A stretch of DNA of 42,800 bases from a virus (Duplodnaviria > Heunggongvirae > Uroviricota > Caudoviricetes), in the IMG/VR virus record IMGVR_UViG_2703719347_000006, positions 1 through 42,800 of that record, one strand, 5' to 3'. Position 1 is the first letter of the stretch, and each line of letters starts with the position of its first letter. Below are positions 1-41,820 of the stretch, piece by piece. A program made the translations under genes and the position numbers. The notes beneath the pieces were generated by a model. It was not told where the DNA came from, searched no databases, and saw nothing but the letters and a program-made list of their open reading frames with translations.

Positions 1-1053
1 CTAGTAGTAATGGTCATAACCTCCGCTTTCTCTTCTGGCTCTGGATGCTCTCACTCGTGCTTTTCTTAACATCCTTAACAGCGGGTGGGTTTGTACTTTG
101 TTCGAGTTTATTGTCTGTGAGGATAGTAACTCCCTGCGCTCTGTCTCTGCCTCTTTGGTGACCGCTATCACTGATAAATCCCAATCGTGTTTGCTAATTA
201 ACGGTGCTTGGAACGGGGTGATTGGTGAGCGATTTATGTCTTGTCGTTTCAATGTACGCTGTATCTGTCGCTTAACTTTGTAGTTGTCTTTCCTTGATGC
301 CTGAATGGCTTTTAGTATGCGTCTTACAGCATGAAAGCCAGTGATAGAAAGTGTTTCTTTTTTTATCTCATGCCGCGCCCAGCCATTCGAATAACCCCAA
401 ACGTTGGCATCTGACCAATCATATAGGCTCTTGCTCGCCTCTCTATTAAAGTCATTTAACTTAGTTTCGGGTTTTGCCATGTAATCAATCTGTTTACCTA
501 TACACCTTGTAGGCTCTGAATATTGCTGACCTTTCAAATCTAGATCCCACTGGGGAGGAACATTTGATGGGATTGCATTGTTTGCCAGTGTTACCCATTT
601 GCTGACAATTTTGCCTGCTTGCCCATTAATGCTTCTTTCGTTCACCATAATTATTGCGTGTACATGCGGCTCTGACTGGTGTTGAGCCCACTCCATGACG
701 TAAACCCACTGATTGCCTTTCGAAGTCAACCATCTGGTAAGTGCCTTTAACGCTTTGTTGAATTTCTCTGGCGTTGTTCCCTTAACGGGTCTGAAGGTAA
801 AGGAGTAGGGGATACCACTAGTTGATTCGACATCCAGAGTAAACAAAGCTCGCCTCATTGTACGCCATTTCTTCTTTGTCCAAGCTGGTGGTATGCAGTG
901 GTTAGCCTTTGATGATTGGCGTTTATTCTCCGCCTTTAATTCATTACGTTTGTGCGTAACTGATCTCACATAAGCTAATGTGCGACCATTGATGTGATTG
1001 ATTACGGCTTGTGATTTTGTGGATAGACTCGCGTCTTTATCGTATAATTCCAT
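1..1053 (-). CDS. Rolling-circle replication initiator-like protein (HUH endonuclease motifs)
   Basis: 350-aa ORF; motifs in canonical order FTLDV (motif I), HVHAII (HUH, motif II), DYMAKP (Y-x-x-K, motif III) with about 60-aa spacing; last visible gene of the leftward integrase operon. Confidence 0.45.
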   Translation of the reverse strand: MELYDKDASLSTKSQAVINHINGRTLAYVRSVTHKRNELKAENKRQSSKANHCIPPAWTKKKWRTMRRALFTLDVESTSGIPYSFTFRPVKGTTPEKFNKALKALTRWLTSKGNQWVYVMEWAQHQSEPHVHAIIMVNERSINGQAGKIVSKWVTLANNAIPSNVPPQWDLDLKGQQYSEPTRCIGKQIDYMAKPETKLNDFNREASKSLYDWSDANVWGYSNGWARHEIKKETLSITGFHAVRRILKAIQASRKDNYKVKRQIQRTLKRQDINRSPITPFQAPLISKHDWDLSVIAVTKEAETERRELLSSQTINSNKVQTHPLLRMLRKARVRASRARRESGGYDHYY

Positions 1054-1121
1054 GTGTAAAGTTCATATATTTCAATTGCTTCAAAGCCGACTCTCGCAAA
1101 GTCGGCTTTCTGCTTTGTCAA

Positions 1122-1508
1122 TCACAGGTATTTGGTTTCAATACCCTTGTAAACAGTTCTAAGCGTGTCTTCAGGCACTTTACCCACCAGCCCACGCAAC
1201 AACGACAACGTTATGTTTACCTTACGCAATGTCTTTACATATCTGGCGTTCGTCCTCCAGATCTTCAATGTTTCGTCTTTATCGCTGTGGTATGCTTCTA
1301 AATTGCGTTCTGTGACGTGATACGCCTCTGTTTTAAACTGCTCAACAGGAATTCCCCAATCGTTGCGTAACAGCGTTAAAACGCGACTACGTTCGTGATT
1401 TCCGGCTTTCCTTAATATGTCGTCAAACTCTTTTGGGGTAAGCTTCCTGCCACTTAGTAGGATATCGCGTATATTCGCGGCGACCTGAGAGCGTGTAAGA
1501 GTGCTCAT
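1122..1508 (-). CDS. Hypothetical protein (128 aa)
   Basis: ORF with 4-nt ATGA-type overlap with the upstream 64-aa gene (1505-1508), suggesting coupling; no recognisable motif. Confidence 0.4.
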   Translation of the reverse strand: MSTLTRSQVAANIRDILLSGRKLTPKEFDDILRKAGNHERSRVLTLLRNDWGIPVEQFKTEAYHVTERNLEAYHSDKDETLKIWRTNARYVKTLRKVNITLSLLRGLVGKVPEDTLRTVYKGIETKYL

Positions 1509-1699
1509 TTTCGTCCCCCCAGAAATCTGTCGGCAAATTGATCAAGGCTGGAGGCAAGCCACACCCGGCGCTTGCGTCCATTGATGGTCTGATTTATATA
1601 GGGAGGAAAGCTTCGGATATATCGCTTTAACTGATAGAAGCGTGACAGACAGACGCCAAGATATTCTGCTGCGTCTTTAGCGGTCAGGTAATTAATCAT
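1505..1699 (-). CDS. Small HTH DNA-binding protein (excisionase/MerR-like helix-turn-helix)
   Basis: 64-aa ORF with motif LTAKDAAEYLGVCLSRFYQL typical of HTH_17/excisionase-type DNA-binding domains. Confidence 0.4.
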   Translation of the reverse strand: MINYLTAKDAAEYLGVCLSRFYQLKRYIRSFPPYINQTINGRKRRVWLASSLDQFADRFLGGRK

Positions 1700-1780
1700 T
1701 TTATTCCCTTACTGTTGTACCAAAATGTAATATGGAGGAGACTTCCTGTCTCCCCAAATTACTCTACAATTTTTGTGCGA

Positions 1781-1972
1781 TTAAATCAGATCTATTACTA
1801 AGTAATCATCGCCAGAGGCAATGCCGATAGCTTTTCCACCGCTGGTGGATTTCACATCATAAACCCAGGTGCTGGTGCTCACCTTTTGTGGCTCTGATCT
1901 AATCAGTGCCGCGAAGGTTTCAAAATCAACATGGGTTACGTTCAGCTTTTGATTGGTAGGTTTCAACTGCAT
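1781..1972 (-). CDS. Hypothetical protein (63 aa)
   Basis: Short ORF co-oriented with neighbours; no motif recognised. Confidence 0.3.
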   Translation of the reverse strand: MQLKPTNQKLNVTHVDFETFAALIRSEPQKVSTSTWVYDVKSTSGGKAIGIASGDDYLVIDLI

Positions 1973-2020
1973 TCTTAATACCTAATAACGTATTGTTTGT
2001 ATCCTGTTTGTTTCTGTTCT

Positions 2021-2212
2021 TTAGTTACTACGCGATTCGGCTATACGTTGATCGATCCAGTCATCGATCTCGCTTTCAATAAAAGCTATTGCGCGAGCAC
2101 CAATCTTGACTGATTGGGGGAATTGTCCTCGGCTCATCAGAGCATATACCCACGCCTTGCTATAGCCAGTGCGTTTCAAAACCTCAGATAGCCGAATCAG
2201 CGACTTTTTCAT
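2021..2212 (-). CDS. AlpA-family transcriptional regulator (P4 Vis-like)
   Basis: 63-aa ORF; sequence LIRLSEVLKRTGYSKAWVYALMSRGQFPQSVKIGARAIAFIESEIDDWI matches the AlpA/Vis small HTH family pattern; downstream of a P4-type integrase. Confidence 0.6.
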   Translation of the reverse strand: MKKSLIRLSEVLKRTGYSKAWVYALMSRGQFPQSVKIGARAIAFIESEIDDWIDQRIAESRSN

Positions 2213-2368
2213 ATCTACCTCGTAATACGTTGCTTGACTATGTGAGATAGTAAATCATTGTTTTTTTAAGTTTTCTGTGAATTTGGAGAAAAAATTTTTG
2301 GGAATAGAATTACCCCAAATTGGGCGTTATTTTTTAGTTCTAACGCACAATTTGGGAACATCCTTCCT

Positions 2369-3115
2369 TTATTTTGGACGCTTTTTGGTTGCTTTTTTCT
2401 TAAATTTGGGGGCGTACTTATCCAAAGCGTTCGTTAGCAATCTCCGAAATGTATCTGGGTGGGTATCGCTGTCTTCATCGTTCCCGAATATTATGTTGTT
2501 TTCTATTACTTGGGCACTAACCCTATTGATACTAAGGTTTCCTCCACTATGGAAATCTTTGCTTGATTCAAATAAGGCAATCGCCATTCCGGCGATCATC
2601 TTTAAAGCCGTATCTTTTCCTCTCCAGTTTTGTTCTCTTTCTACTTTTTTTGACAGTGCTCCAATTTCTGGTTCGTTATCTGGAACATTCATATCCAGTT
2701 CTGGGAAGAAGTTCACAACCTCGGAGCGCTTGAAATAAAACGAATCGTAAGACCCATACCAATCATCCTCATCATCGTGATATAAAAAGTCTTCCCCTTT
2801 CCTAACGTTGAAAGTCCCTTCTTCCCCCGGTATCGGGCTCTCCCTGTATTCATGCCCCATAGCCAGAAGACCTAAAAACTCCACACACTGCTTTTCAAAG
2901 TCGTCATTAGTTGTAAAACCTGATACCCAATCGAACTGATAAAAGCCCAGCCCCCCTAAAGTATCTGGTTTAGCTTTGCTCAATCTGTAGTTACTTAAGA
3001 TAGCGGCAGCGATCATTCTTTCATTTTCATTGTTTAGTCTTGCCAGTTCGCTGATCAGATTACCAAACCAGATTTTATCTTCTGACTCGTTATAAAACGC
3101 ATCTAGTCCTGTCAT
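2369..3115 (-). CDS. Acidic hypothetical protein with basic C-terminal tail, translationally coupled to integrase
   Basis: ATG at 3115-3113 lies 1 nt after the integrase TAA stop (3119-3117); 248 aa from this ATG (ORF track gives a GTG start at 3124); D/E-rich core, C-terminal KFKKKATKKRPK; AT-rich by eye. Confidence 0.5.
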   Translation of the reverse strand: MTGLDAFYNESEDKIWFGNLISELARLNNENERMIAAAILSNYRLSKAKPDTLGGLGFYQFDWVSGFTTNDDFEKQCVEFLGLLAMGHEYRESPIPGEEGTFNVRKGEDFLYHDDEDDWYGSYDSFYFKRSEVVNFFPELDMNVPDNEPEIGALSKKVEREQNWRGKDTALKMIAGMAIALFESSKDFHSGGNLSINRVSAQVIENNIIFGNDEDSDTHPDTFRRLLTNALDKYAPKFKKKATKKRPK

Positions 3116-3116
3116 C

Positions 3117-4403
3117 TTAGTCACGGCGTGTTCTCCTTCCGAACTCGTAAGGGCTTATATGTATTTCTCGATTGGCGTCCAGATAATCTGCCCACCATTG
3201 AAGCATTAGTTTGCGCTCTTCTAAGTAATCAGCCTTGTGCTTGTAGGCTCTTTTAACGTCTTTATATTCTTTGTGGCTCATCTGGCGCTCTACTGCGTCC
3301 TCCTGCCACAAACCGGACTCCATCAGGGAACTACAGGCTGTGGCACGGAATCCATGTCCAGTTACGTCCTCTTGCGTGTTATAGCCCATTAAGCGTAATG
3401 CCTTGTTTACCGTGTTTTCACTCATCACGCCTTTGGTGTTTCTTTCATTCGGAAACACAACATCGTAGCTTCCGCTTAGTTCTCTCAACTGCTTTACAAT
3501 AGAAACAGCCTGACGGCTAAGAAGCACGATATGTTCGTCTTTTCCCGTTTTTGTGCCACGGGTGGAAAACCTCACACCATCGATAGGCTCTCTTTTTTTA
3601 GGGATAATCCACTCAGCCCGATCAAGGTCAAACTCTTTCCAACGGGCAAACCTTAACTCGCTTGAACGAACAAATGTCAACATGGTTAGCTCAATGGCAA
3701 GGCGGGTAAGAGGATTACCTTTAAAGCTGCCCAATCGAGTGAAAAAGTCTGGTAAATCTCTGGGATGTAGTGCGGCATGATGCTTAGTTTCATATTGCAT
3801 TAACCGGACATCGAGATCATTCGTGATGATTTCTGTCTTAATGCCGCTCAGACGGGCGCTATGTATGATGTCCTTAACTCGTTGTTTAAGTCGGTTGGCT
3901 GTATCGTGTTTCCCGGCGTCATCTACCTTCTTAAACAAAGGTAAAATTGTCATCGCCTCCAGTTTGCGAATATCCGAAGTGCCAATGTGAGGGAAAATAT
4001 ACATTTCAAGGCTTCTAAGTACGCGTTTTCGTTGGTCTTCGTTCCACATCTGGTGGCTTTCAACCCATTGACGTCCTATTGTCTCAAAAGTGAATGCGCC
4101 TTTTTCTTCTGCTTTTGCTGCTCTTTGCTCTGCTTTGGGATCTATCCCCTTGACTAACAACTTTTTGGCGTTGTCTCGTTTTTCTCTGGCGTCTTGTAAG
4201 CTAATGGTTGGATATACACCAAAAGCAAGTCTGTCTTCTTTCTTATCTGATGGGCGGCGATACTTCATTCGCCAATACTTCGACCCGGTCTGGGATACTT
4301 CAAGATAAAGACCACCACCATCAGACAATTTATAAGTTTTGTCTCGTGGCTTAGCTGCTTTGCACTGACGGTCTGTTAATTTGTTGAGGGTATTTCTGGA
4401 CAT
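3117..4403 (-). CDS. int: Tyrosine integrase, P4-type (arm-binding N-terminal domain)
   Basis: 428-aa ORF; N-terminus KLSDGGGLYLEVSQTGSKYWRMKYR typical of P4/CP4-57-type integrases; C-terminal catalytic region with HGFR...Y. Confidence 0.85.
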   Translation of the reverse strand: MSRNTLNKLTDRQCKAAKPRDKTYKLSDGGGLYLEVSQTGSKYWRMKYRRPSDKKEDRLAFGVYPTISLQDAREKRDNAKKLLVKGIDPKAEQRAAKAEEKGAFTFETIGRQWVESHQMWNEDQRKRVLRSLEMYIFPHIGTSDIRKLEAMTILPLFKKVDDAGKHDTANRLKQRVKDIIHSARLSGIKTEIITNDLDVRLMQYETKHHAALHPRDLPDFFTRLGSFKGNPLTRLAIELTMLTFVRSSELRFARWKEFDLDRAEWIIPKKREPIDGVRFSTRGTKTGKDEHIVLLSRQAVSIVKQLRELSGSYDVVFPNERNTKGVMSENTVNKALRLMGYNTQEDVTGHGFRATACSSLMESGLWQEDAVERQMSHKEYKDVKRAYKHKADYLEERKLMLQWWADYLDANREIHISPYEFGRRTRRD

Positions 4404-4655
4404 GTTGGGGGCACATATACAATCGAACCAGCAATGCCCCTAATTATGCCCCATAGATTTACTTGATTTCAATAGACGGAAATGGACGTCATGAGAATAA
4501 AATCTCTTTATTTTTATATGTTTACATGGGATTTATAGACAATGGTAGACGTTGGTGTACAGCGGGATGGTGTCCCCTGCAGACATCTACTTGAGGCAGC
4601 AGGGGATTGATTAGAATGGTGTTTTTGAGATGTGAGAAATATTTTACCCGCTATT

Positions 4656-4856
4656 TTACCCATTGGCGCGGCTTAAGAGCTTATTTTTGAATTCACAATG
4701 GTCACGATATAACCATCTTGCTCGTCCGTGGATAACTTTGGCTTTAGGCAGGTCGCCGGACTTAATCCGGTCATAGATGAAGGTCTTACCGAAGCCAGTA
4801 TCGGCCATGATGAATTTCAAATCAACTAGTGAATCAGGCTGTAGTTCGTGTTGCAT
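4656..4856 (-). CDS. xis: Excisionase-like small DNA-binding protein
   Basis: 66-aa ORF from internal ATG at 4856-4854 (Met75 of the track ORF 4656-5078); position between integrase and early recombination genes. Confidence 0.5.
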   Translation of the reverse strand: MQHELQPDSLVDLKFIMADTGFGKTFIYDRIKSGDLPKAKVIHGRARWLYRDHCEFKNKLLSRANG

Positions 4857-4935
4857 GAGTGCTATCTCCAAATAGGGAATCGAACCTGCAAATAAGGCAA
4901 TAAAAAACCGCATTGATGCGGCGATGGAAAATTCC

Positions 4936-8575: not shown

Positions 8576-9622
8576 TCACTCTGGTTCGCTGGGGAATATA
8601 TTTATCAATTGCCCTGTTGAAATGTGCCCATTTTCTACAACCTCTAGGTATGAAATTTCAACAGTTGATTCTTTGGCTACAGCATTCAAAAACTCAAGAA
8701 GCTCATCAGTAGATGTTATGTCGGCTGAGGTCTTTATGGTGAAAGATTCACCATTTGAAACCCTTATGACGTCAATATTTATGTCCTGATTTGTTTCTCC
8801 CGAGCGACGAACGCCCGTGACATAAAAGTTATCTCTTCTAGTTTCCTTTTTTCGATCAATTGATTGTCTTTGGTTTAAGGTATTCAACTGTTCTCTATTT
8901 ACCACTCTCTGACCAATTGTTACCCTCTCAACTGACGAGTCTTGAGCAAGCTTTTTAAGCAACTTGCTTTTACCATCCTCGCCGTGAGCCAGAACCTCTC
9001 TGCTAATGTTTGTTTGACCGCTAATCAACAACTTGAGCACATTGTCTTGTGCTTCGTTTACCGCTTTGGTGCTTTTTTCCACCAATTGCACCTGAGAATC
9101 TTGGTTATGTCGCTGTGTTTCGTAGTACTCATTGATCCACTTATAGCCTACCGTGCTGGCAGCTAAGACGATAGCGGCGACGGCGCATAGTGCTTGCCTT
9201 CCTGTCATTTTGCCTATCGCTTGAGTAAACACTGTCACCACTCCGTTTACAATCGGATCTGAGTCACCATCCGCTTGGCTTGAGCCTTCGCTTATTCGGT
9301 AGACAATATCCAGCAAACCTTTCTCTGCATCTTTTAGCTTCTGCCGATTATGAGTGCTGTGACTGACTACCGTAAATGCTTTTTGTATTTCATGCGTAAG
9401 CTCTGCCATACCAAAAAGCATTGACGCAGTCAATGAAGAATTATATCTATTTGGATCGCCTTTTACATTAATATTGATCTTTGGCCATCCACTGAAAACT
9501 ACGTTAGGGAATGTGAAGTCGCTTGAGTCGATGTCCTTCCTTCCGAGCATTTCTGTTACAAAAGATACAAAGTCGTCTTCTGACTTGATAACATATTGCG
9601 CAGGTTGATCAATCGCTGACAT
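8576..9622 (-). CDS. Membrane protein of unknown function in the rexAB position (candidate lysogen-expressed exclusion protein)
   Basis: 348-aa ORF; ATG 25 nt after the cI stop with AAGGA RBS; one predicted TM segment ALCAVAAIVLAASTVGYKWI followed by a coiled-coil-like stretch; AT-rich by eye; terminator immediately downstream. Confidence 0.7.
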   Translation of the reverse strand: MSAIDQPAQYVIKSEDDFVSFVTEMLGRKDIDSSDFTFPNVVFSGWPKININVKGDPNRYNSSLTASMLFGMAELTHEIQKAFTVVSHSTHNRQKLKDAEKGLLDIVYRISEGSSQADGDSDPIVNGVVTVFTQAIGKMTGRQALCAVAAIVLAASTVGYKWINEYYETQRHNQDSQVQLVEKSTKAVNEAQDNVLKLLISGQTNISREVLAHGEDGKSKLLKKLAQDSSVERVTIGQRVVNREQLNTLNQRQSIDRKKETRRDNFYVTGVRRSGETNQDINIDVIRVSNGESFTIKTSADITSTDELLEFLNAVAKESTVEISYLEVVENGHISTGQLINIFPSEPE

Positions 9623-15384: not shown

Positions 15385-15587
15385 CGTTCTCAGTAAAAAC
15401 CATTCCAGACATGCTCGTTGAAGCATACGGAAACCAGACAGAAGTAGCACGCAGACTGAAATGTAGTCGCGGCACGGTCAGAAAATACGTTGATGATAAA
15501 GACGGGAAAATGCACGCCATCGTCAACGACGTTCTCATGGTTCATCGCGGATGGAGTGAAAGAGATGCGCTATTACGAAAGAATTGA
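15381..15587 (+). CDS. ninH: NinH-like protein
   Basis: 68-aa [39 protein letters not shown] with HTH-like segment; 4-nt overlap with ninG. Confidence 0.7.
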
Positions 15588-16236
15588 TGGCAGCAAATAC
15601 CGAAATATTTGGGTAGTTGGCGATCTGCACGGATGCTACACGAACCTGATGAAAAAACTGGAGACGATAGGATTCGACACCAAAAAAGACCTGCTTATCT
15701 CGGTTGGCGATTTGGTCGATCGCGGTACAGAGAACGTCGAATGTCTGGAATTAATCACATTCCCCTGGTTCAGAGCTGTACGTGGAAACCATGAGCAAAT
15801 GATGATTGATGGCTTATCAGAGCGCGGAAACGTCAATCACTGGCTGTTTAATGGCGGTGGCTGGTTCTTTAATCTCGATTACGACAAAGAAATTCTGGCT
15901 AAAGCTCTTGCCCATAAAGCAGATGAACTTCCGTTAATCATCGAACTGGTGAGCGAAGGTAAAAAATATGTCATCTGCCACGCCGATTATCCTTGTGACG
16001 AATACGAATTTGGAAAGCCAGTTGATCATCAGCAGGTAATCTGGAACCGCGAACGAATCAGCAACTCACAAGACGGGATCGTGAAAGAAATCAAAGGAGC
16101 TGACACGTTCATCTTTGGTCATACGCCAGCAGTGAAACTACTCAAGTTTGCCAACCAGATGTATATCGATACCGGCGCAGTGTTCTGCGGAAACCTCACA
16201 TTGATTCAGGTACAGGGAGAAGGCGCGTGGGCATAA
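15565..16236 (+). CDS. ninI: Ser/Thr protein phosphatase (lambda PPase / NinI-like)
   Basis: Start at internal ATG 15565 (MRYYERIDG...); metallophosphatase motifs GDLHG, GDLVDRG, GNHE. Confidence 0.85.
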
Positions 16237-16745
16237 GAGAACTAAACCTCACCAAAGAGCAGCACGAGTGGCTGAATGGCTGGCTTGAACTGTGGGGCGC
16301 ATGGGTTTATTCAGGTCGTCTGGAAAAGCGCATGAGCAGCGTAATAGCGAAGTTCATGGAGAGCGTAGAGCCGGGAAGAGTTATGACAAGGCCAATGTGC
16401 AATGATGATGATGGAATGTTGATTTCTCAGGTCGTCGATTCCGTCATGTACATTGACAAGAAAGCCTTTGGCATCCTCCTCAGCTACTACGCTCATGGTT
16501 CATCTAAGCGAGCAATTGCATCCTACTATCACGCGACTGCAAAGCCACGCAAGATGTGTGGACGTGGTGGCGAGGGATGGAGAAAACCTTCACTGGCAAC
16601 CTGTAGAAACGAAATTGACGACATCCTGAAAGCGTCATTATTTGTTTTATACCAGCCAATGCAAAATGCTTTCAAAATGCGTAAACGTGTTGAGAAAGTT
16701 AAGCATGTTGCCGTTAAAAGCCTTGACATGCAATTAGCCATTTAG
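16227..16745 (+). CDS. Late-gene antiterminator Q-like protein
   Basis: 172-aa ORF (GTG start with GGAGAAGG RBS) in the Q position between nin genes and the late promoter; Cys-containing; not lambda-Q-like in sequence. Confidence 0.5.
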
Positions 16746-16752
16746 CCATAAT
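16723..16752 (+). promoter_or_regulatory. Putative late promoter pR'
   Basis: -35 TTGACA (16723-16728), 18-nt spacer, -10 CATAAT (16747-16752), overlapping the 3' end of the Q-like gene. Confidence 0.45.
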
Positions 16753-16762
16753 TAGAGGGTAA

Positions 16763-16805
16763 GCTGCCGTTAGTGACTCTTAAGTTGCAACGGTGGCTTT
16801 TTTTA
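16763..16805 (+). terminator. Putative tR'-like terminator
   Basis: Imperfect 9-bp stem gctgccgtt (16763-16771) / aacggtggc (16789-16797) with a long loop, followed by a T-run 16798-16805. Confidence 0.35.
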
Positions 16806-16808
16806 TTT

Positions 16809-16883
16809 GGGTCAGTCGTATAAAGGTCATTACGGAAGGCTGTTAACCTTCTTATCGTGGTTCGAGTCCACGCTGTCCCGCCA
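16809..16883 (+). tRNA. tRNA-Asn (anticodon GUU), by manual cloverleaf folding
   Basis: 75 nt: acceptor gggtcag/ctgtccc (one mismatch), anticodon stem gaagg/ccttc, loop ctGTTaa, T-arm cgtgg-TTCGAGT-ccacg, discriminator g and CCA. Confidence 0.6.
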
Positions 16884-16888
16884 AATAT

Positions 16889-16964
16889 GCTGGTTTAGCT
16901 CCAATGGTAGAGCAGTCGCCTTGTAAGCGAATGGGTAGCGGTTCAAGTCCGTTAACCAGCACCA
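16889..16964 (+). tRNA. tRNA-Thr (anticodon UGU), by manual cloverleaf folding
   Basis: 76 nt: acceptor gctggtt/aaccagc, D-arm gctc/gagc with GG in loop, anticodon loop ctTGTaa, T-arm agcgg-TTCAAGT-ccgtt, discriminator a and CCA. Confidence 0.7.
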
Positions 16965-17206
16965 TAACTGAGCCGTAGCCACTGGCTATCCTGAATTCAT
17001 CAGTGATAGTTACGCTGCGGCATTCTACGCATGACCTTCGTGAAAGCGGGTGGCATGAGGTTGCCCTAACAACCTCCTGCCGTTTTGCCCGTGCATATCG
17101 GTCACGAACAAATCTGATTACTAAACACAGTAGCCTGGATTTGTTCTATCAGTAATCGACCTTATTCCTAATTAAATAGAGCAAATCCCCTTATTGGGGG
17201 TAAGAC

Positions 17207-17530
17207 ATGAAGATGCCAGAAAAAAATGACCTGTTAGCCGCCATTCTAGCGGCAAAGGAACAAGGCATCGGGGCAATCCTTGCGTTTGCAATGGCGTACC
17301 TTCGCGGCAGATATAATGGTGGTGCGTTTACAAAAACAGTAATCGACGCAACGATGTGCGCCATTATCGCCTGGTTCATTCGTGACCTTCTCGGCTTCGC
17401 CGGACTAAGTAGCAATCTCGCTTATATAACGAGCGTGTTCATCGGCTACATCGGTACTGACTCGATTGGTTCGCTTATCAAACGCTTCGCTGCTAAAAAA
17501 GCCGGAGTAGAAGATGGTGGAAATCAATAA
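17207..17530 (+). CDS. S: Holin S (class I, dual-start MKM)
   Basis: 107-aa [25 protein letters not shown]... matching lambda S as recalled. Confidence 0.9.
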
Positions 17531-17990
17531 TCAACGTAAGGCGTTCCTCGATATGCTGGCATGGTCAGAGGGAACTGATAACGGACGTCAGAAAACCAGA
17601 AATCATGGTTATGACGTCATTGTAGGAGGAGAGCTATTCACTGATTACTCCGATCACCCTCGCAAACTTGTCACGCTAAACCCAAAACTCAAATCAACAG
17701 CAGCCGGACGTTACCAGCTTCTTTCCCGTTGGTGGGATTCCTATCGTAAGCAGCTTGGCCTGAAAGACTTCTCTCCGAAAAGCCAGGACGCTGTGGCATT
17801 GCAGCAGATTAAAGAGCGTGGCGCTTTACCGATGATTGATCGCGGTGATATTCGTCAGGCTATCGACCGTTGCAGCAATATCTGGGCTTCACTGCCGGGC
17901 GCTGGTTATGGTCAGTTCGAGCATAAGGCTGACAGCCTGATTGCAAAATTCAAAGAAGCAGGCGGAACGGTCAGAGAGATTGAGGTATGA
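17514..17990 (+). CDS. R: Endolysin R (lytic transglycosylase)
   Basis: 158-aa ORF matching lambda R as recalled. Confidence 0.9.
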
Positions 17991-18454
17991 GCAGGGTCAC
18001 CGCGATTATCTCCGCTCTGGTTATCTGCATCATCGTCTGCCTGTCATGGGCTGTTAATCATTACCGTGATAACGCCATCGCCTACAAAGAACAGCGTGAT
18101 AAAAAAGCCAGTGAGCTGAAGCAGGCGACCGCCACCATTACTGACATGCAGCAGCGCCAGCGTTCTGCTGATGCACTCGATGCTAAATACACGAAGGAGT
18201 TAGCTGATGCGAAAGCTGAAAATGATGCTCTTCGGCGCAAGCTTGATAATGGTGGTCGGGTGTTCGTCAAAGGAAAATGCCCTGTGCCATCCTCAGCCGA
18301 AACCTCCAGCGCCTCCGGCATGGGCAATGATGCCACCGTCGAACTCTCTCCAGTTGCTGGACGAAACGTTCTCGGTATCCGGGACGGAATTATCCGCGAC
18401 CAAACAGCACTGAGAACGCTTCAGGAATACATCAGGACGCAATGCCTGAAATAA
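17987..18454 (+). CDS. Rz: i-spanin Rz
   Basis: 155-aa ORF with N-terminal TM segment and coiled-coil periplasmic domain. Confidence 0.85.
18207..18413 (+). CDS. Rz1: o-spanin Rz1 (lipoprotein embedded in Rz in the +1 frame)
   Basis: Signal peptide with lipobox VVGC and proline-rich [11 protein letters not shown]; wholly inside Rz. Confidence 0.8.
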
Positions 18455-18511
18455 TTTTTTTGCAAATCAATACCATGATTGCTGACATCGTTAATCATAG
18501 AAATTGGAGCA

Positions 18512-19084
18512 ATGTTTCGGAGGTGTGATTTGAAACAGCTCACACCTAAGCAGGAACTGTTCTGCAGGGAATATTTAAAAGATTTAAACGCCACTCAGGC
18601 AGCTATCAGGGCGGGTTACAGCGAGGATTCTGCCGCCTCACAGGGGTGCGAGAACCTTATAAAACCTAATATCGCAAAACGCATTGCTGAGCTAAAGGCT
18701 GAACGCAATGAAGAGGTAGGTATAGACGCTGCCTATGTATTGCGACGGCTGACTGAAATCGATCAGATGGACGTGCTTGACATTCTGCTTGCCAATGGCG
18801 AACTGAAGCCGATTAAAGACTGGCCTAAGGTGTGGCGTACAACGCTATCAGGAATGGATGTCGTCGAGATGGCATCAGCAGATAGTGCTGCTCTCCTGAA
18901 GAAAATCAAATGGCCTGATAAGGTTAAAAACCTTGAGTTGCTTGGGCGTCATGTTTCTGTTCAGGCGTTTAAAGACAACGTCAAAAATGAAGTGACTGGT
19001 GCTGACGGAGGACCAGTCAGAACAGAAATTACCAACTTAACGCCGGAGCAGGCTGCAGAGGCGTATAGAAAAATGATGGGCTAA
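18512..19084 (+). CDS. Terminase small subunit
   Basis: Start at ATG 18512 with GGAG RBS; motif [13 protein letters not shown] typical of HTH-type small terminase; immediately upstream of large terminase. Confidence 0.7.
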
Positions 19085-19086
19085 GT

Positions 19087-20709
19087 ATGCCGTTACCATT
19101 CCCCTTCGATTTTAAACATCCTGATTACCAGATGGTTTTTGAATGGCGGATGGAACGCCTACAGCGCATTCGCCAGAATCCTGAAATATTGCCTGCACTA
19201 AAACAGTTTTACCGAACCAATCCGGCTCAGTTCATCATCGACTGGGGCATGACAACGGACCCGCGTAATATTGATTATGGCCTGCCGGTGACCATTCCGT
19301 TTTTACTCTTCCCTAAGCAGGAGGAGTGGATCCACTGGATTATGGAACGCTGGGGTAATCGGGAGAATGGTATTACCGAAAAATCCCGTGAAATGGGGCT
19401 CAGTTGGACCGCGATCGGGCTGGCATGCTCGCTTTGTCTCTTCAACAAAGAAATGGTTATCGGTTTCGGCTCCCGTAAAGAGGAATACGTCGACAGCACC
19501 GGTGACCCGAAAGCATTGTTCTGGAAGGCACGCAAGTTCGTGGAAACGCTACCTGTAGAGTTTCGCGGTTCGTGGAGTGAGAAGAAGCACGCGCCATATA
19601 TGCGTGTTGAGTTTCCTGAAACTGGTGCCGTTATCAAAGGCGAGGCTGGCGATAATATTGGTCGTGGTGACCGTACCACGCTTTATCTGGTTGATGAGGC
19701 TGCATTCCTTCAGCGTCCTCTGCTGATTGATGCGGCGTTGTCACAAACGACGCGTTGCCGTATTGACCTGAGTTCAGTTAACGGCATGGCGAACCCGTTC
19801 GCTCAGAAGCGTCATGGCGGGAAGATACCGGTATTCACATTCCACTGGCGGGATGATCCTCGCAAGGATGAAGAGTGGTATCGCAGGGAATGCGAGAAAA
19901 TAGATAATCCGGTGGTGGTGGCACAGGAACTTGATCTGAACTACAGCGCATCAGCGGAAGGCGTCCTGATTCCATCCGAATGGGTACAGGCTGCTGTCGA
20001 CGCGCATATCAAGCTGGGCATCCAGCCAACAGGCAAGCGACTGGGCGCGATGGACGTCGCCGACGAAGGCAGGGACAAAAATGCCTTTTCCACCCGTCAT
20101 GGCTTCCTCCTGGAGAATGTGCGGGAATGGTCCGGTGTGGGCAGCGACATTTATCAGTCCGTCGAGAAGGTTTTCGGCTTTTGCGAACAGGACAACCTCG
20201 AAGAGTTTCGCTTTGACGAGGACGGGCTGGGCGCTGGCGTTCGCGGCGATGCACGCGCTATCAACGAACTGCGTAACGCTGCGCGTCGACCGTCAATACT
20301 TGCCACACCGTTTCGAGGTAGTGGCGCGGTATTTGATCCGGATGATGAAGCTGTTCGCGGGGACAACGGGCAAGCCGCACGTCTGAACAAGGACTTCTTC
20401 GCTAACGCCAAAGCCCAGAGCTGGTGGCGGTTACGTAAACTTTTCCAGAACACCTGGCGTGCCGTGGTTGAAGGTATGGCTTACAACCCGGACGAAATCA
20501 TCTCAATCAGCAGTAGCATGGCACTCAAAGATAAACTCATCATCGAGCTTTCGCAGCCGACCTATTCCATTAATGGTGTGGGAAAAATCGTTATTGATAA
20601 ACAGCCTGATGGAACCCGGTCGCCAAACCTTGCCGACTCGGTGATGATCAGCTATGCCCCAATGAATTCAGCCCTGAATATCTGGGAGCTGCTAGGGAGA
20701 CAGGCCTGA
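19087..20709 (+). CDS. Terminase large subunit
   Basis: 540-aa ORF; deviant Walker A-like EKSREMGLS, Walker [10 protein letters not shown], acidic nuclease-domain residues; upstream of portal with TGATG overlap. Confidence 0.7.
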
Positions 20710-22175
20710 TGGCACGAAACAAACAAGCCCTGCGGAGAACTGCGCAGGCCACCGCTGATGGCTATGAGAACTTTGTCGCCCGCGTGGGAATGCAGACGCC
20801 TAACCAGCACTCAGCATCGACCTACCGGGCTAACTTCACCAGTCGCAACCGCATGCTGGTGGAATGGTCCTATCGTTCGTCCTGGATCATCGGCGAAGCG
20901 GTCGACGCTATCCCGGATGATATGACCCGCAAAGGCATTCGCATCACTTCGGAAATTGATGCAAAAGATCGCGGCATTCTCGAATCACAACTTGATGAGT
21001 TGCAGATCTGGGATGCGCTGAACGACGTGCTGAAATGGTCTCGCCTCTACGGCGGCGCGGTGGGGTTCATCATGATTGAGGGGCAGGCACCAATGACCCC
21101 GCTGCGGCTCGAAACCATTGGAGAAGGCAAGTTTAAGGGTATTCTCCCGCTCGACCGCTGGATGATTAACCCGGTGCTGACCCGCCGCATTAAAGAGATG
21201 GGGCCAGATCTCGGCAAACCTGAGTTTTACGACGTGGTGACCACTGCAACGGGCATCCCGGCCTGGCGCATCCATCACAGCCGCCTGATTCGCTTCGATG
21301 GCGTCACGCTGCCATTCCAGCAGAAGATGACCGAGAACGAATGGGGAATGTCGGTTGTAGAGCGAATCTGGGATCGGCTTACTGCGTTCGACAGCGCCAC
21401 TGTCGGCGCGGCGCAGCTGGTCTACAAAGCGCATTTGCGTACCTACAGCGTGGAGAAGCTGCGCGAGATTATCGCGCTTGGTGGTCCTGCGTATGAAGCG
21501 CTGCTGAAGAACATCGACCTGATCCGCAAGTTCCAGAGCAATGAAGGCATGACGCTCATGGACTCGCGGGATAAGTTTGAAACGCATCAGTACAGCTTCA
21601 GTGGTCTGGATGACATCCTATCGCAGTTTGCAGAACAGATTAGTGGCGCTGTTGGTATTCCACTGGTGCGGTTGTTCGGACAGTCCCCGAAAGGATTTTC
21701 TACCGGTGATGCAGATCTTGCCAACTATTACGACCGGGTGAGCTCATTGCAGGAGCGCCGCTTACGGATGCCGATGCGCCGGATACTGGACATTATGCAC
21801 CGCTCGGAACTCGGTAAGCCGCTGCCGGACGATTTCACGTTTGAGTTTAACCCGCTCTGGCAAATGTCTGATGTCGATCGCTCAACGGTGGCGTTAAACA
21901 CTACCAACGCAATCAGTACGGCGCTGGGTGATGGTCTGATGACACTGAAAGCCGCTATGACCGATTTGCGCGAAAATTCTGACGTAACCGGCATCGGGGC
22001 ATCCATTACCGACGAGGACATAGAGAATGCCGAAGACGAAGCGCCGCCAGGCATCGGCGAACTTGGCGACAAACCGCCAGAGTCGCCAGGCGGAGATCCG
22101 ATATCGAACGAGCCTACGGCAGATAGCGCGGGCGGTCGGGGATATCGTAAATGGTCGCTACGATGGTTCAAATGA
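20709..22175 (+). CDS. Portal protein
   Basis: 488-aa ORF directly after large terminase and before the head morphogenesis gene; acidic C-terminus. Confidence 0.65.
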   Translation: MARNKQALRRTAQATADGYENFVARVGMQTPNQHSASTYRANFTSRNRMLVEWSYRSSWIIGEAVDAIPDDMTRKGIRITSEIDAKDRGILESQLDELQIWDALNDVLKWSRLYGGAVGFIMIEGQAPMTPLRLETIGEGKFKGILPLDRWMINPVLTRRIKEMGPDLGKPEFYDVVTTATGIPAWRIHHSRLIRFDGVTLPFQQKMTENEWGMSVVERIWDRLTAFDSATVGAAQLVYKAHLRTYSVEKLREIIALGGPAYEALLKNIDLIRKFQSNEGMTLMDSRDKFETHQYSFSGLDDILSQFAEQISGAVGIPLVRLFGQSPKGFSTGDADLANYYDRVSSLQERRLRMPMRRILDIMHRSELGKPLPDDFTFEFNPLWQMSDVDRSTVALNTTNAISTALGDGLMTLKAAMTDLRENSDVTGIGASITDEDIENAEDEAPPGIGELGDKPPESPGGDPISNEPTADSAGGRGYRKWSLRWFK

Positions 22176-22191
22176 CAGTGTCACCGAAATA

Positions 22192-22800
22192 ATGGATGCG
22201 CTGGAGCGCTACAGCGAAATCATCACCCCCTGGGCGACGAAGGTTGCTGAGAACTTTACCGCCGACATTGCGCGCCAGAATGAAAAGCAGTGGCGTCAGC
22301 ACAGCAGGAACATCAGCGCAGAGCTGCGCAACATGGTCGACCGCGCCCCGGTAGGCCAGGTGATGAAATCCATCGTCGCCGAGCAAATTAAGTACATCAA
22401 GTCACTGCCTCTTGAGGCCGCCGATCGGGTGTATGACATTCAGAACAAGGCCATCGAGGCCGTTGTGTCTGGTGGCCGCGCTGAGCCATTCGCGAAAGAG
22501 ATAGCTGCGTCCGGTGACGTGTCACGCTCACGAGCGAACCTTATCGCCCGTACCGAGCTTGGACGTGCAACCGGCGCGCTGGATCAGGCGCGTGCGCTGT
22601 CAATCGGCTCGAATGGTTATATCTGGCGTACAGCCGAAGATGGCGACGTCCGGCATTCTCATCGGGAGATGGAAGGTAAGTTTGTCGAATGGGGCAAACC
22701 TCCAACGCTTGATGGCATGACCGGTCACGCTGGCGAGCTCCCGAATTGTCGCTGTTATAAAGAAATCGTTTTTCCCAATCCTCATTCTTATCTCGCCTGA
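22192..22800 (+). CDS. Head morphogenesis protein (Mu F-like / SPP1 gp7 family)
   Basis: Conserved C-terminal motif GDVRHSHREMEGKFVEWGKPP...LPNCRCY; track ORF starts at 22027 overlapping portal by 149 nt, first in-frame ATG after the portal stop is 22192, true start uncertain. Confidence 0.6.
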   Translation: MDALERYSEIITPWATKVAENFTADIARQNEKQWRQHSRNISAELRNMVDRAPVGQVMKSIVAEQIKYIKSLPLEAADRVYDIQNKAIEAVVSGGRAEPFAKEIAASGDVSRSRANLIARTELGRATGALDQARALSIGSNGYIWRTAEDGDVRHSHREMEGKFVEWGKPPTLDGMTGHAGELPNCRCYKEIVFPNPHSYLA

Positions 22801-22814
22801 ATCGCAGGTAAACC

Positions 22815-41547: not shown

Positions 41548-41820
41548 TTACTGGACTGCACGACCATCGATGTAATCAGCCCACCACTGCATCATCTACC
41601 TGCGCTTATCGAGATACTGAGCATGGTTGTAAATCCCGCGCACAGATCCGCCGTTGGCATGTGCCAGTTGCACTTCAATGGCGTCGGCAGGCCATTCGTG
41701 CTCGTTCATAATCGTGCTGAATTCATGCCTGAATCCGTGACCGCTTTCCAGACCTTCATAGCCGATTTGTTTGATCACAAGCAATACCGCGTTCTCGCAG
41801 ATTGGCTTCTTCTTATCGTT
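41548..41820 (-). pseudogene. Integrase remnant (C-terminal catalytic region only, with in-frame TAG)
   Basis: HGFRHEF...LAHANGGSVRGIYNHAQYLDKRR then TAG (41598-41596), then in-frame MMQWWADYIDGRAVQ to TAA (41550-41548); homology begins abruptly near 41820. Confidence 0.6.

What the first reader, a model, noticed from the sequence alone, without database searches (positions are those of the whole stretch)
1..4655. Left 4.4 kb resembles an integrative satellite/island module, not a lambdoid arm
All genes run leftward: P4-type integrase, coupled cargo ORF, AlpA-like regulator, small HTH protein, 128-aa unknown and a HUH rolling-circle Rep-like protein ending at base 1. That gene set is typical of P4-like or PICI-like elements. 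The lambdoid xis-like gene (4656-4856) is separated from int by 252 nt of AT-rich non-coding DNA, so either the prophage uses this integrase and carries unusual cargo beyond it, or a separate element sits in tandem with or inside the prophage.
Basis: inference. Interest (0 to 1): 0.6.

Follow-up and report, generated by a model that had tools for sequence, protein, structure and literature searches.

The report
Integrated plasmid-like island beside a prophage
The left 4.6 kb of the window is not part of the prophage but one end of a separate, roughly 10-kb mobile island inserted in the argW tRNA gene, built from a P4-type integrase module joined to the backbone of a little-known family of small rolling-circle plasmids.

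Summary

Homology to HK620/Sf6-type phages begins exactly at base 4567, the annotated HK620 attP core. Bases 4568-4582 are the 3' end of tRNA-Arg (argW).

In 196 of 5,426 complete E. coli genomes the island lies directly against argW with no prophage. Only 36 have the island-torI junction seen here. The whole island is about 10.3 kb, bounded by 23-nt repeats of the argW end, and continues about 5.7 kb left of base 1 (cargo genes, then a resolvase).

It is a chimera of two modules:
- Int (58% identical to satellite P4 Int), an int-overlapping 251-aa gene, AlpA and a 63-aa gene form a P4-related integration module.
- HTH64, the 128-aa protein, Rep and the resolvase match, in the same order, small untyped circular Klebsiella plasmids.

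The slot after rep carries different, partly defence-like genes in different hosts.

It fails the membership tests for P4-like satellites, PICIs and PICMIs: no primase and no packaging genes. How it moves between cells is unknown. Interest is moderate; I class it as a new variant of a known kind.

The parts
1..1053 (-). HUH rolling-circle Rep, 350 aa. Its stop codon is at bases 1-3, which is a prophage-caller edge and not the end of the element.
1083..1109 (.). GC-rich hairpin (10-bp stem) between the 128-aa gene and rep. Read as a terminator- or attenuator-like element (inferred).
   Evidence: Terminator-like hit. An A-run followed by a GC hairpin lies at the same position (after the 126-128-aa gene, 40-50 nt before rep) in the Klebsiella island and in four related plasmids.
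1122..1508 (-). 128-aa protein with no known domain. It always lies directly upstream of rep and is a likely replication accessory or regulator (inferred).
   Evidence: 31-41% identical (MAFFT) and 33-46% (tblastn) to the 126/127-aa genes that precede rep on plasmids L019, L020, L023, L024 and L025. dN/dS 0.07-0.21.
1505..1699 (-). 64-aa HTH (HTH_17/excisionase-type) protein. It overlaps the 128-aa gene by 4 nt and is the first gene of the plasmid-derived module.
   Evidence: Pfam HTH_17 at E 5.6e-5, 23.8 bits, below the 27-bit curated cut-off. 42-44% identical to the 68-aa DNA-binding gene in the same position on plasmids L020, L023, L024 and L025.
1781..1972 (-). 63-aa protein of unknown function. 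It belongs to the integration-module half, since it is absent from the plasmids.
   Evidence: ORF. No Pfam, NCBIfam, PHROG or PADLOC hit. 95-98% identical in the Klebsiella, Citrobacter and E. albertii copies.
2021..2212 (-). AlpA-family winged-helix protein, 63 aa. Probable excision trigger or recombination directionality factor (inferred).
   Evidence: Pfam Phage_AlpA at E 3.6e-18. 100% identical in the Klebsiella, Citrobacter and E. albertii copies. 33% identical to P4 ORF88. 32% identical over 38 aa to the neighbouring prophage TorI.
2314..2356 (.). 16-nt inverted repeat (94% complementary, 11-nt spacer) just after the stop codon of the 251-aa gene and upstream of alpA. Read as a terminator or operator separating int-p251 from alpA (inferred).
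   Evidence: Inverted repeat I7. A promoter-like site for alpA lies at 2281-2254, but such sites are not more frequent in this region than in shuffled sequence.
2369..3124 (-). 251-aa int-overlapping gene (8-nt overlap with the int stop). It is a conserved backbone gene, not cargo, and occupies the same position as 'iolg' of PICMI satellites.
   Evidence: ORF; overlap sequence. Present next to int in the Klebsiella and Citrobacter copies. The N-terminal 143 residues are nearly invariant and the C-terminal ~100 residues diverge. No family hit. The AlphaFold model failed (pLDDT 41). iolg is required for PICMI excision, PMC10803314.
3117..4403 (-). P4-type tyrosine integrase of the island, 428 aa.
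   Evidence: Pfam Arm-DNA-bind_3, Phage_int_M and Phage_integrase. 58% identical to satellite P4 Int over 410 aa. Only 31% identical to the prophage IntS. dN/dS 0.12 against the Klebsiella copy.
4404..4567 (.). Island-side arm of the attachment site, with an int promoter-like site at 4472-4443. It is identical in genomes where the island abuts argW directly.
   Evidence: Identical to L003 19404-19567. Promoter-like match of 10/12 positions. Genomes without the prophage match the window only up to 4582.
4568..4582 (-). Shared att core: 15 nt of the argW (tRNA-Arg CCT) 3' end. It is the remnant of the island's 23-nt argW-side repeat and also the xis-side att of the prophage.
   Evidence: HK620 'attP core' 1368-1383 aligns to window 4567-4582. 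The tRNA-Arg gene in L003 starts at the equivalent base. It is the only copy in the window. The full 23-nt repeat flanks the island in L003 and L004.
4583..4856 (-). Prophage side of the junction: the phage att arm and the TorI-type excisionase gene (4656-4856). This belongs to the prophage, not the island.
   Evidence: 95-97% identical to HK620, Sf6, Kapi1 and other phages from base 4567 onward. Annotated torI in 5CRE51.

Best explanation
Window 1-4582 is the argW-proximal end of a separate integrative element of about 10.3 kb (8.1 kb in Klebsiella). It is not an arm of the prophage.

SHOWN
- The element is bounded by 23-nt direct repeats of the 3' end of tRNA-Arg (argW).
- In this strain a prophage with an HK620/Sf6/KplE1-type att site and TorI excisionase has inserted into argW between the tRNA and the island. 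The island's argW-side repeat is therefore cut to 15 nt (4568-4582) and abuts the phage xis.
- The element is a chimera of two modules. The first is a P4-related integration module: Int, the int-overlapping 251-aa gene, AlpA and a 63-aa gene. The second is the backbone of a family of small, untyped circular enterobacterial plasmids: a 64-aa HTH protein, a 128-aa protein, a hairpin, the HUH Rep, then outside the window a conserved non-coding block, a variable cargo slot, a 58-aa gene and a serine resolvase.

INFERRED (how it works)
- Int and the 251-aa protein are made from their own operon.
- AlpA acts as the excision trigger or directionality factor.
- The excised circle is nicked by Rep and copied by rolling-circle replication, with the HTH and 128-aa proteins and the hairpin limiting Rep expression.
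- The resolvase resolves multimers.
- The cargo, defence-like in several variants, benefits the host.
- Transfer between cells needs a helper, either a phage capsid or a conjugative pore. Which one is not known.
For: Boundary:
- Phage homology starts at 4567, the annotated HK620 attP core.
- Genomes without the prophage match the window only up to 4582, and tRNA-Arg starts there.
- 23-nt repeats flank the island at L003 9260-9282 and 19568-19590, in L002 and in Klebsiella L004.

Independence from the prophage:
- 196 complete E. coli genomes have the island-argW junction and 36 have the island-torI junction.
- Different prophages sit in front of the same island in different genomes.
- The prophage in 5CRE51 has its own IntS beside argW.

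Chimera:
- Int is 58% identical to P4 Int, and AlpA is 33% identical to P4 ORF88.
- HTH64 (42-44%), p128 (33-46%), Rep (24-29%) and the resolvase (28-45%) have homologues in the same order on circular plasmids L019, L020, L023, L024 and L025. Int, p251, AlpA and p63 do not.
- On those plasmids Rep is the only recognisable replication protein.
- One plasmid record is a perfect head-to-tail dimer.

Rep is intact: motifs I-III are invariant, the fold is HUH and dN/dS is 0.23-0.30.

Recent horizontal spread: Int is 96%, AlpA 100%, p128 98% and the resolvase 98% identical between E. coli and Klebsiella or Citrobacter at the same site. Rep is only 50% identical and the cargo differs.

Cargo variants:
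- 821 aa + 330 aa
- HNH_2 + 136 aa + 105 aa
- DpnII-MboI-like nuclease + 232 aa
- SIR2/STAND NTPase + 422 aa
- 470 aa

AlpA and an int-overlapping gene are required for excision in PICMI satellites (PMC10803314).
Against: - No excised or autonomous form was seen. The predicted attP junction is absent from 5,426 complete E. coli assemblies including their plasmids, from JGI metagenome contigs and from IMG/VR. Island DNA is absent from 72,556 PLSDB plasmids.
- The origin is not identified. The candidate hairpin (CTTATAGA-N10-TCTATAAG, L002 19704-19729, outside the window) is shared with plasmid L019, but its right arm is not conserved in the Klebsiella island.
- Defence function of the cargo is a guess from domains. 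PADLOC finds nothing in the E. coli cargo.
- The roles of AlpA, p251, HTH64 and p128 rest on analogy only.
- In this strain the island's argW-side repeat keeps only 15 of 23 nt, so clean solo excision may be impaired.
- The window's own flanks are not visible. The left continuation and the prophage IntS are read from other genomes that share the junction (window 1-4927 is 99.9% identical to 5CRE51; the rest of the prophage is mosaic).
Confidence: 0.75

Rival explanations
1. The block is part of the prophage: the phage uses this integrase, and the genes beyond it are phage morons.
For: The block is adjacent and in the same orientation as the early-left genes. Prophage callers include it (the window itself, and IMG/VR loci L009-L011).
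Against: - No phage record holds the block.
- Homology with HK620-type phages stops exactly at the attP core.
- The block is found without any prophage in 196 genomes, and with several unrelated prophages in others.
- HK620/Sf6/KplE1-type phages have attP between int and xis, so the prophage int lies at the other end. That is what is seen in 5CRE51 (PMC2951348, seen as title and abstract only; otherwise from my own knowledge of this phage group).
Confidence: 0.02
2. The element is a minimalist phage satellite, working like a PICMI or a stripped-down P4. A helper phage induces AlpA, the island excises, Rep makes concatemers or many copies, and these are packaged by a helper capsid, for example a headful-packaging P22-like phage. 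The cargo defends against competing phages.
For: - The Int-iolg-like-AlpA layout is the same as in PICMI115, where all three genes are needed for excision and replication feeds concatemer packaging.
- Int is 58% identical to satellite P4 Int.
- The element is small (8-10 kb), with a defence-like cargo slot.
- AlpA-family proteins and the Kapi1 Xis cross-talk (PMC11773190). Kapi1 shares this att-xis region.
Against: - There is no primase, terminase, capsid or redirecting gene.
- No P2/P4 or lambda cos pattern was found (patterns recalled from memory).
- No DNA similarity to any phage outside int.
- All IMG/VR occurrences are prophage-caller spill-over from isolate genomes.
- There is no enrichment of TorI-type prophages next to the island: 36 of about 232 island carriers, against about 1,598 of 5,426 genomes overall.
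- The closest relatives of the rep half are autonomous plasmids.
- A multimer-resolving resolvase works against concatemer formation.
Confidence: 0.15
3. The element is an integrative mobilizable element. The HUH protein acts as a Rep-type relaxase (as MobT does in Firmicutes) at an oriT in the conserved non-coding block, and a co-resident conjugative plasmid or ICE supplies the pore.
For: - HUH Rep-like proteins serve as relaxases in many IMEs (PMC5704250 and PMC7563843, seen as titles and abstracts).
- There is a weak Pfam Relaxase hit over the same residues.
- The backbone is near-identical across genera.
- Many small genomic islands are proposed to hitch on conjugation (bioRxiv 10.64898/2026.01.13.699239).
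Against: - The Relaxase hit is below threshold (17.4 against 24.6 bits).
- The motif order (HUH before Tyr) is that of replication initiators (knowledge of the HUH superfamily).
- MOB-suite types the related small plasmids as non-mobilizable, with no relaxase.
- On those plasmids the protein is the only candidate replication initiator.
- There is no coupling protein or other Mob gene.
Confidence: 0.15
4. The element is an immobile, decaying remnant fixed at argW. The genes are no longer used.
For: - It is only ever seen integrated.
- There are IS insertions in some copies.
- Deletion chimeras fuse prophage remnants to truncated Rep (L012, L014-L017, L008).
Against: - All seven ORFs are intact. 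dN/dS is 0.07-0.30 for int, p128, HTH64 and rep.
- Both att repeats are intact in most copies.
- The same backbone, at 92-94% DNA identity, lies at the same site in Klebsiella and Citrobacter and at 97-100% protein identity in E. albertii, with a swapped Rep and cargo.
- It is present in only about 4% of complete E. coli genomes.
Confidence: 0.08

Closest known systems
Satellite phage P4 (integration module)
   Same: Int is 58% identical over 410 aa, and it is the only phage-database DNA match to the island. There is an AlpA/Vis-type small winged-helix protein, 33% identical to P4 ORF88. The target is the 3' end of a tRNA gene. Int is followed in the same direction by a gene of about 250 aa.
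   Different: There is no alpha primase-helicase, no Sid, Psu, Delta or Epsilon, and no P2-type cos. The target is argW, not leuX. The 251-aa gene is unrelated to P4 cII. Replication is by an HUH Rep of plasmid origin.
PICMI (phage-inducible chromosomal minimalist islands of Vibrionaceae; PMC10803314)
   Same: Both are small islands with int, an int-overlapping gene, alpA, one replication gene and a few accessory or defence genes, and no capsid-remodelling genes.
   Different: The PICMI core is defined by a primase, integration next to fis and a Vibrionaceae host. Here the replication gene is an HUH Rep, the site is argW, the hosts are Enterobacteriaceae and a resolvase is present. Helper-phage dependence is untested.
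Small untyped circular plasmids of Klebsiella (NZ_CP073059.1, NZ_AP022186.1, NZ_CP141860.1) and circular contigs L019 and L020
   Same: They have the same operon: a small HTH gene overlapping a 126-128-aa gene, a hairpin, the HUH Rep, then a cargo slot and a serine resolvase. Protein identities are 24-46%.
   Different: The plasmids are autonomous, 4.5-6 kb, and have no integrase, AlpA, p251 or p63. They carry an extra 125-145-aa MerR/HTH_17 protein that is not seen in the island.
Actinomycete integrative and conjugative elements such as pSAM2 (PMC2440964)
   Same: The review's abstract describes them as elements integrated in specific tRNA genes. From my own knowledge, they combine a tyrosine integrase and Xis with a rolling-circle Rep and can replicate after excision.
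   Different: The host phylum is different and the proteins are unrelated. AICEs carry their own FtsK-like transfer gene, while no transfer gene is present here.
HK620/Sf6/KplE1 (CPS-53) prophage att system, which is the neighbour and not the island
   Same: The window from 4567 onward is 95-97% identical to the attP-xis region of these phages. It has the same 16-nt core in argW and a TorI-type Xis.
   Different: This describes the adjoining prophage only. Its IntS is just 31% identical to the island Int.

Membership tests
P4-like satellites | P4-type tyrosine integrase and an AlpA/Vis-type regulator | tested here: met
   Int is 58% identical to P4 Int. AlpA is 33% identical to P4 ORF88.
P4-like satellites | Alpha primase-helicase replication protein | tested here: not met
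   No primase or helicase domain in any island protein by Pfam, NCBIfam or PHROGs.
P4-like satellites | Helper-manipulating genes Sid, Psu, Delta and Epsilon | tested here: not met
   No hits in Pfam or PHROGs. No DNA similarity to P4 outside int.
P4-like satellites | P2-type cos site | tested here: not met
   The 19-nt P2/P4 cos pattern (recalled from memory) is absent from L002, which holds the whole island, at up to 3 mismatches.
PICI (Gram-negative type) | int plus alpA at one end | tested here: met
PICI (Gram-negative type) | Primase/replicase (pri-rep) module | tested here: not met
   The only replication gene is an HUH Rep.
PICI (Gram-negative type) | Packaging or capsid-redirection genes (small terminase, Rpp/Ppi, capsid morphogenesis) | tested here: not met
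   None found in the 10.3-kb island.
PICI (Gram-negative type) | Induction and packaging by a helper phage | not testable with these tools
   This needs induction and transduction experiments. The only indirect test is co-occurrence, and the island is not enriched next to TorI-type prophages.
PICMI | Core of int, alpA and primase | tested here: not met
   int and alpA are present but there is no primase. The definition is from PMC10803314.
PICMI | A gene overlapping the int stop codon (iolg) | tested here: met
   The 251-aa gene overlaps int by 8 nt. This is a positional analogue only, because no PICMI iolg sequence was available to compare.
PICMI | Integration next to fis in Vibrionaceae | tested here: not met
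   Integrated in argW of Escherichia, Klebsiella and Citrobacter.
Integrative mobilizable elements (IME) | Own integration/excision module, flanked by att repeats | tested here: met
Integrative mobilizable elements (IME) | Relaxase and/or oriT recognised by a helper conjugative system | tested here: inconclusive
   The HUH protein has Rep topology. The Pfam Relaxase hit is below cut-off (17.4 against 24.6 bits). Related plasmids are typed non-mobilizable. No oriT library was available.
HUH rolling-circle replication initiators (Rep class) | Motifs I (uuTu), II (HUH) and III (YxxK) in that order | tested here: met
   F-T-F-R-P (T86), H130-V-H132 and Y191-M-A-K194 are invariant in 14 sequences.
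HUH rolling-circle replication initiators (Rep class) | HUH nuclease fold | tested here: met
HUH rolling-circle replication initiators (Rep class) | Site-specific nicking at a double-strand origin, with single-stranded intermediates | not testable with these tools
   Only a candidate hairpin was found. This needs biochemistry.
tRNA-gene genomic island | Direct repeats derived from the tRNA 3' end, and presence/absence polymorphism at the site | tested here: met
   23-nt repeats. The island is present in about 232-234 of 5,426 complete E. coli genomes.

The most novel reading that the evidence does not exclude
This is the first enterobacterial representative of minimalist, PICMI-like phage satellites. 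Its replication module was captured from a small rolling-circle plasmid. A helper phage (virulent or temperate) triggers AlpA, the island excises, the HUH Rep amplifies it, and full-size helper capsids package multimers. The variable slot after rep carries anti-phage genes directed at the helper's competitors.
Probability: 0.15. Interest if true: 0.7.

Novelty: new variant of a known kind. Interest (0 to 1): 0.45.

Why it matters
Practical point: prophage callers merge this island with whichever prophage lands in argW. The window and at least three IMG/VR entries stop at the same Rep stop codon. A PHROG family (phrog_30534) also matches the C-terminal 215 residues of Rep at E 3e-151, although no phage record in the 50,697-record collection carries a Rep homologue. 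The block therefore contaminates viral catalogues and should be trimmed at base 4567/4582.

Biological points:
- The island links two poorly known groups: small genomic islands whose way of moving between cells is unknown, and a family of small untyped Klebsiella plasmids whose Rep has only about twenty detectable relatives among 1.84 billion representative proteins.
- It gives a compact system of 8-10 kb and about 11 genes for testing three things: whether a P4-type Int/AlpA module can park a rolling-circle replicon in a tRNA gene, which helper moves it, and whether the slot after rep is a defence-gene exchange site shared between plasmids and chromosomes.
- The E. coli cargo pair (821-aa membrane protein plus 330-aa protein) has no hit in any library used and is a candidate new defence system.

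Tried and rejected
- AlphaFold on the 251-aa protein with six homologues gave pLDDT 41, so it was unusable and no fold search was run.
- PADLOC, NCBIfam and PHROGs gave nothing informative for the 128-aa, 63-aa, 251-aa, 821-aa and 330-aa proteins. PDB sequence searches of the two cargo proteins were empty.
- The predicted circular junction (attP) was searched exactly in JGI metagenome contigs and IMG/VR, and by megablast in 5,426 E. coli genomes. It was never found joined. The whole island has no match in PLSDB.
- The P2/P4 cos and lambda cos patterns were absent.
- I first took strain 5CRE51 as the source of the window, because 1-4700 is 100% identical. A full comparison shows that the prophage body is mosaic and that no complete genome holds it. 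The left continuation and the far-end IntS are therefore inferred from genomes that share the junction, not read from the source strain.
- The GC hairpin between the 128-aa gene and rep was considered as the origin. I rejected that in favour of a terminator or attenuator reading, because it is an A-run, GC stem and T-run directly after a stop codon in all relatives.
- The CTTATAGA hairpin was considered as the double-strand origin. It is kept only as a candidate, because its right arm is not conserved in the Klebsiella island. It could equally be a resolvase or repressor site.
- EcCIMP1, the PICI mobilised by phage Kapi1, was checked as a possible identity. It is a different 20-kb primase-bearing island in a tRNA-Thr gene.
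- The profile scan of genome contigs with the 14-sequence alignment failed because it had no conserved stretch. The 6-sequence alignment found only E. albertii and a Citrobacter species.

Full report
**1. What is in the sequence**

Bases 1-4403 hold seven tightly packed ORFs, all on the minus strand, with 92% coding density. In order of transcription they are:
- Int, 428 aa, 4403-3117
- a 251-aa ORF whose GTG start overlaps the int stop by 8 nt, 3124-2369
- AlpA, 63 aa, 2212-2021
- a 63-aa ORF, 1972-1781
- an HTH_17-type protein, 64 aa, 1699-1505
- a 128-aa ORF overlapping the previous one by 4 nt, 1508-1122
- a 350-aa protein, 1053-1, whose stop codon is bases 3-1

**2. Where the prophage ends**

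Megablast of 1-4900 against 50,697 phage records finds nothing left of base 4567. From 4567 on, HK620, Sf6, Kapi1 and 16 other records match at 95-97%. In the HK620 record the match starts at position 1368, which is the first base of the annotated 16-nt 'attP core'.

E. coli genomes without a prophage here match the window from 1 to exactly 4582. In one of them (WCHEC005784, L003) the next bases are the rest of tRNA-Arg (argW), followed by yfdC. Bases 4568-4582 (TGGTGTCCCCTGCAG) are therefore the 3' end of argW. This is the only copy of that sequence in the window.

HK620/Sf6/KplE1-type phages have attP between int and xis, so in a lysogen xis and int lie at opposite ends. In strain 5CRE51, which shares this junction (window 1-4927 at 99.9%), the prophage's own intS lies beside argW about 44 kb away. 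The island Int and that IntS are only 31% identical.

**3. The island is a separate, bounded element**

In L003 a 23-nt direct repeat, TGGTGTCCCCTGCAGGAATCGAA, lies at 9260-9282 and 19568-19590 and delimits 10.3 kb. The same distal copy is present in 5CRE51. Left of window base 1 the island continues as follows:
- about 800 bp of non-coding DNA
- a convergent pair of genes of 330 and 821 aa
- a 58-aa gene
- a serine resolvase, 208 aa

Junction-specific searches over 5,426 complete E. coli genomes give 196 with the island directly at argW and 36 with the island-torI junction. The two island ends occur in 234 genomes. The prophage in front of the island differs between genomes. The torI-att region occurs in about 1,598 genomes overall, so the island is not enriched for such a neighbour.

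The left edge of the window is an artefact. Three IMG/VR prophage calls with other prophages stop at the same Rep stop codon.

**4. The island is a chimera**

*(a) Integration half.* Sensitive blastn of 1-4566 against phages hits only integrase genes, and the best is satellite P4. At protein level Int is 58% identical to P4 Int over 410 aa, and AlpA is 33% identical to P4 ORF88. The 251-aa protein is unrelated to P4 cII.

*(b) Replication half.* An exhaustive HMMER search of 1.84 billion representative proteins finds only 21 relatives of Rep at E<=1e-3. The word-index search finds only Escherichia and Klebsiella relatives.

The distant relatives lie on small circular replicons:
- a 4.5-kb Logan contig with the 30-nt terminal overlap expected of a circle (L019)
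- a 5.5-kb contig whose end genes join across the ends (L020)
- complete Klebsiella plasmids of 5.3-6.3 kb, typed non-mobilizable and without a replicon type

tblastn of all island proteins against five of these replicons shows homologues in the same order: HTH64 (42-44%), p128 (33-46%), Rep (24-29%) and the resolvase (28-45%). Int, p251, AlpA and p63 have no homologues there (p128 alignment). A GC hairpin preceded by an A-run lies between the 126-128-aa gene and rep in every member, at 1083-1109 in the window. On the plasmids Rep is the only recognisable replication protein. One plasmid record is a perfect head-to-tail dimer of 6,066 bp. The module boundary therefore falls between window 1700 and 1780.

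**5. Spread and modularity**

The same backbone lies at the same site (yfdC-argW) in Klebsiella pneumoniae (8.1 kb between the 23-nt repeats), in a Citrobacter species and in E. albertii.

Between E. coli and Klebsiella:
- the int-to-p128 segment is 92% identical in DNA and the resolvase end is 94% identical
- Int is 96% identical, AlpA 100%, p128 98% and the resolvase 98%
- Rep is only 50% identical, and the cargo is different

The 251-aa protein has an almost invariant N-terminal 143 residues and a divergent C-terminal ~100 residues.

The cargo variants seen are:
- 821 aa + 330 aa
- HNH_2 + 136 aa + 105 aa
- DpnII-MboI-like nuclease + 232 aa
- SIR2-like/STAND NTPase + 422 aa
- a 470-aa protein

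dN/dS is 0.12 for int, 0.07-0.21 for p128, 0.08-0.30 for HTH64 and 0.23-0.30 for rep. These rest on small counts but are consistent with genes in use.

**6. How it most likely works**

What is shown: site-specific insertion in the argW 3' end, with 23-nt repeats; an intact HUH Rep of Rep topology; and a plasmid-type backbone.

What is inferred:
- int-p251 form one unit, ending at a 16-nt palindrome (2314-2356).
- alpA has its own promoter-like site (not above chance).
- AlpA triggers excision, as shown for PICMI115. There int, the int-overlapping gene iolg and alpA are all required, and alpA alone suffices (PMC10803314).
- The circle is then replicated by Rep, and multimers are resolved by the resolvase.

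A candidate origin lies just outside the window. It is a conserved non-coding block about 270 bp past the rep stop, containing the hairpin CTTATAGA-AATTAATCAC-TCTATAAG and ACGT-rich repeats. The same stem occurs on plasmid L019, whose Rep is about 25% identical. Its right arm is not conserved in the Klebsiella island, so it remains only a candidate.

The transfer route is open. Against a satellite reading:
- no packaging genes
- no cos patterns
- no phage DNA similarity outside int
- no Rep homologue in any phage record
- no enrichment next to prophages

Against an IME reading:
- no relaxase above threshold
- the plasmid relatives are typed non-mobilizable

No excised form was found in assemblies or metagenomes.

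In this strain the island's argW-side repeat keeps only 15 of 23 nt, because the phage crossover replaced the rest. Solo excision may therefore be impaired, and co-excision with the prophage is conceivable. AlpA is 32% identical over 38 residues to the neighbouring TorI. AlpA-family proteins can substitute for the Xis of Kapi1, a phage with this same att-xis region (PMC11773190). Cross-talk is thus possible but untested.

**7. Comparison with known systems, and verdict**

The element works like several known things but is a member of none that I could test:
- The integration module is P4-related, but the features that define P4-like satellites (alpha primase, Sid/Psu/Delta, cos) are absent.
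- PICI and PICMI membership both fail on the primase, and PICI also on the packaging genes.
- IME membership is inconclusive.
- The general design, a tyrosine integrase plus a rolling-circle Rep in a tRNA gene, is that of actinomycete elements such as pSAM2 (PMC2440964), with unrelated proteins and no transfer gene.

I found no paper describing this island or the plasmid family. The library is limited to open-access texts.

I class it as a new variant of a known kind, of moderate interest. Its immediate practical value is that it is a recurrent contaminant of prophage calls at argW.

**8. Limits**

- The source strain of the window is not in the complete-genome collection. Everything left of base 1 and right of base 42800 is read from other genomes that share the junction.
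- Functions of AlpA, p251, p63, HTH64 and p128 are by analogy.
- A defence role for the cargo is a domain-based guess.
- No wet-lab evidence exists for excision, replication or transfer.

Noticed in passing
L002 15748-19202 (E. coli 5CRE51; about 0.8-4.3 kb left of window base 1): The E. coli cargo of the island is a convergent gene pair of 821 aa (N-terminal transmembrane helices, then a large helical region) and 330 aa. It has no hit in Pfam, NCBIfam, PHROGs, PADLOC or PDB sequences. It occupies the slot that holds nuclease or SIR2/STAND genes in other variants, so it is a candidate unknown defence system.
   Followed up: partly
window 2369-3124: The int-overlapping 251-aa protein has an almost invariant N-terminal 143 residues and a C-terminal ~100 residues that drop to low identity between variants. 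This suggests either a recombination boundary inside the gene or a diversifying specificity domain.
   Followed up: partly
window 41576-41889: A fragment homologous to the 3' end of the prophage intS gene (96.8% to 5CRE51 intS) lies inside the tail-fibre region, followed by a second set of tail-fibre genes. It looks like the scar of an earlier prophage end or a tail-fibre module swap. The window stops about 0.9 kb short of where intS and argW lie in 5CRE51.
   Followed up: partly
window 16809-16964: tRNA-Asn (GTT) and tRNA-Thr (TGT) genes lie inside the prophage. In the homologous region of 5CRE51 (window 15571-22843 is 97.5% identical to it) they lie just downstream of the Q antiterminator gene.
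   Followed up: no
L012 (IMGVR_UViG_645058835_000001), L014-L017, L008 (CP027593.1): These are deletion chimeras at argW. Remnants of P22/HK620-like prophages (IntS, tailspike, ejection proteins, Ead/DUF551) are fused directly to a full or truncated island Rep. In L008 a torI-att segment lies on the far side of the resolvase. The tandem array evidently decays by deletions that span both elements.
   Followed up: partly
L025 (Klebsiella plasmid NZ_CP141860.1, 12,132 bp): The record is a head-to-tail dimer of a 6,066-bp unit with one mismatch. It could be a real multimer of the Rep/resolvase plasmid or an assembly artefact.
   Followed up: partly
L002 13899-14051, just outside the island's distal 23-nt repeat: A 50-aa DUF4942 fragment lies between the island and the csc sucrose genes. 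In another genome (L032) the island abuts dsdC directly. This is probably the remnant of yet another element at the argW locus.
   Followed up: no
window 1-1053; PHROGs family phrog_30534: A PHROG 'phage' family of unknown function matches Rep residues 136-350 at E 3e-151, yet no phage record in the 50,697-record collection encodes a Rep homologue. The family probably derives from prophage calls that swallowed this island.
   Followed up: partly
L002 19704-19729 (outside the window); L019 1495-1519: The hairpin CTTATAGA-N9/10-TCTATAAG, with a loop ending in CAC and flanked by TTGAC, is shared between the E. coli island and a 4.5-kb circular plasmid whose Rep is about 25% identical. It is a candidate origin or protein-binding site.
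   Followed up: partly
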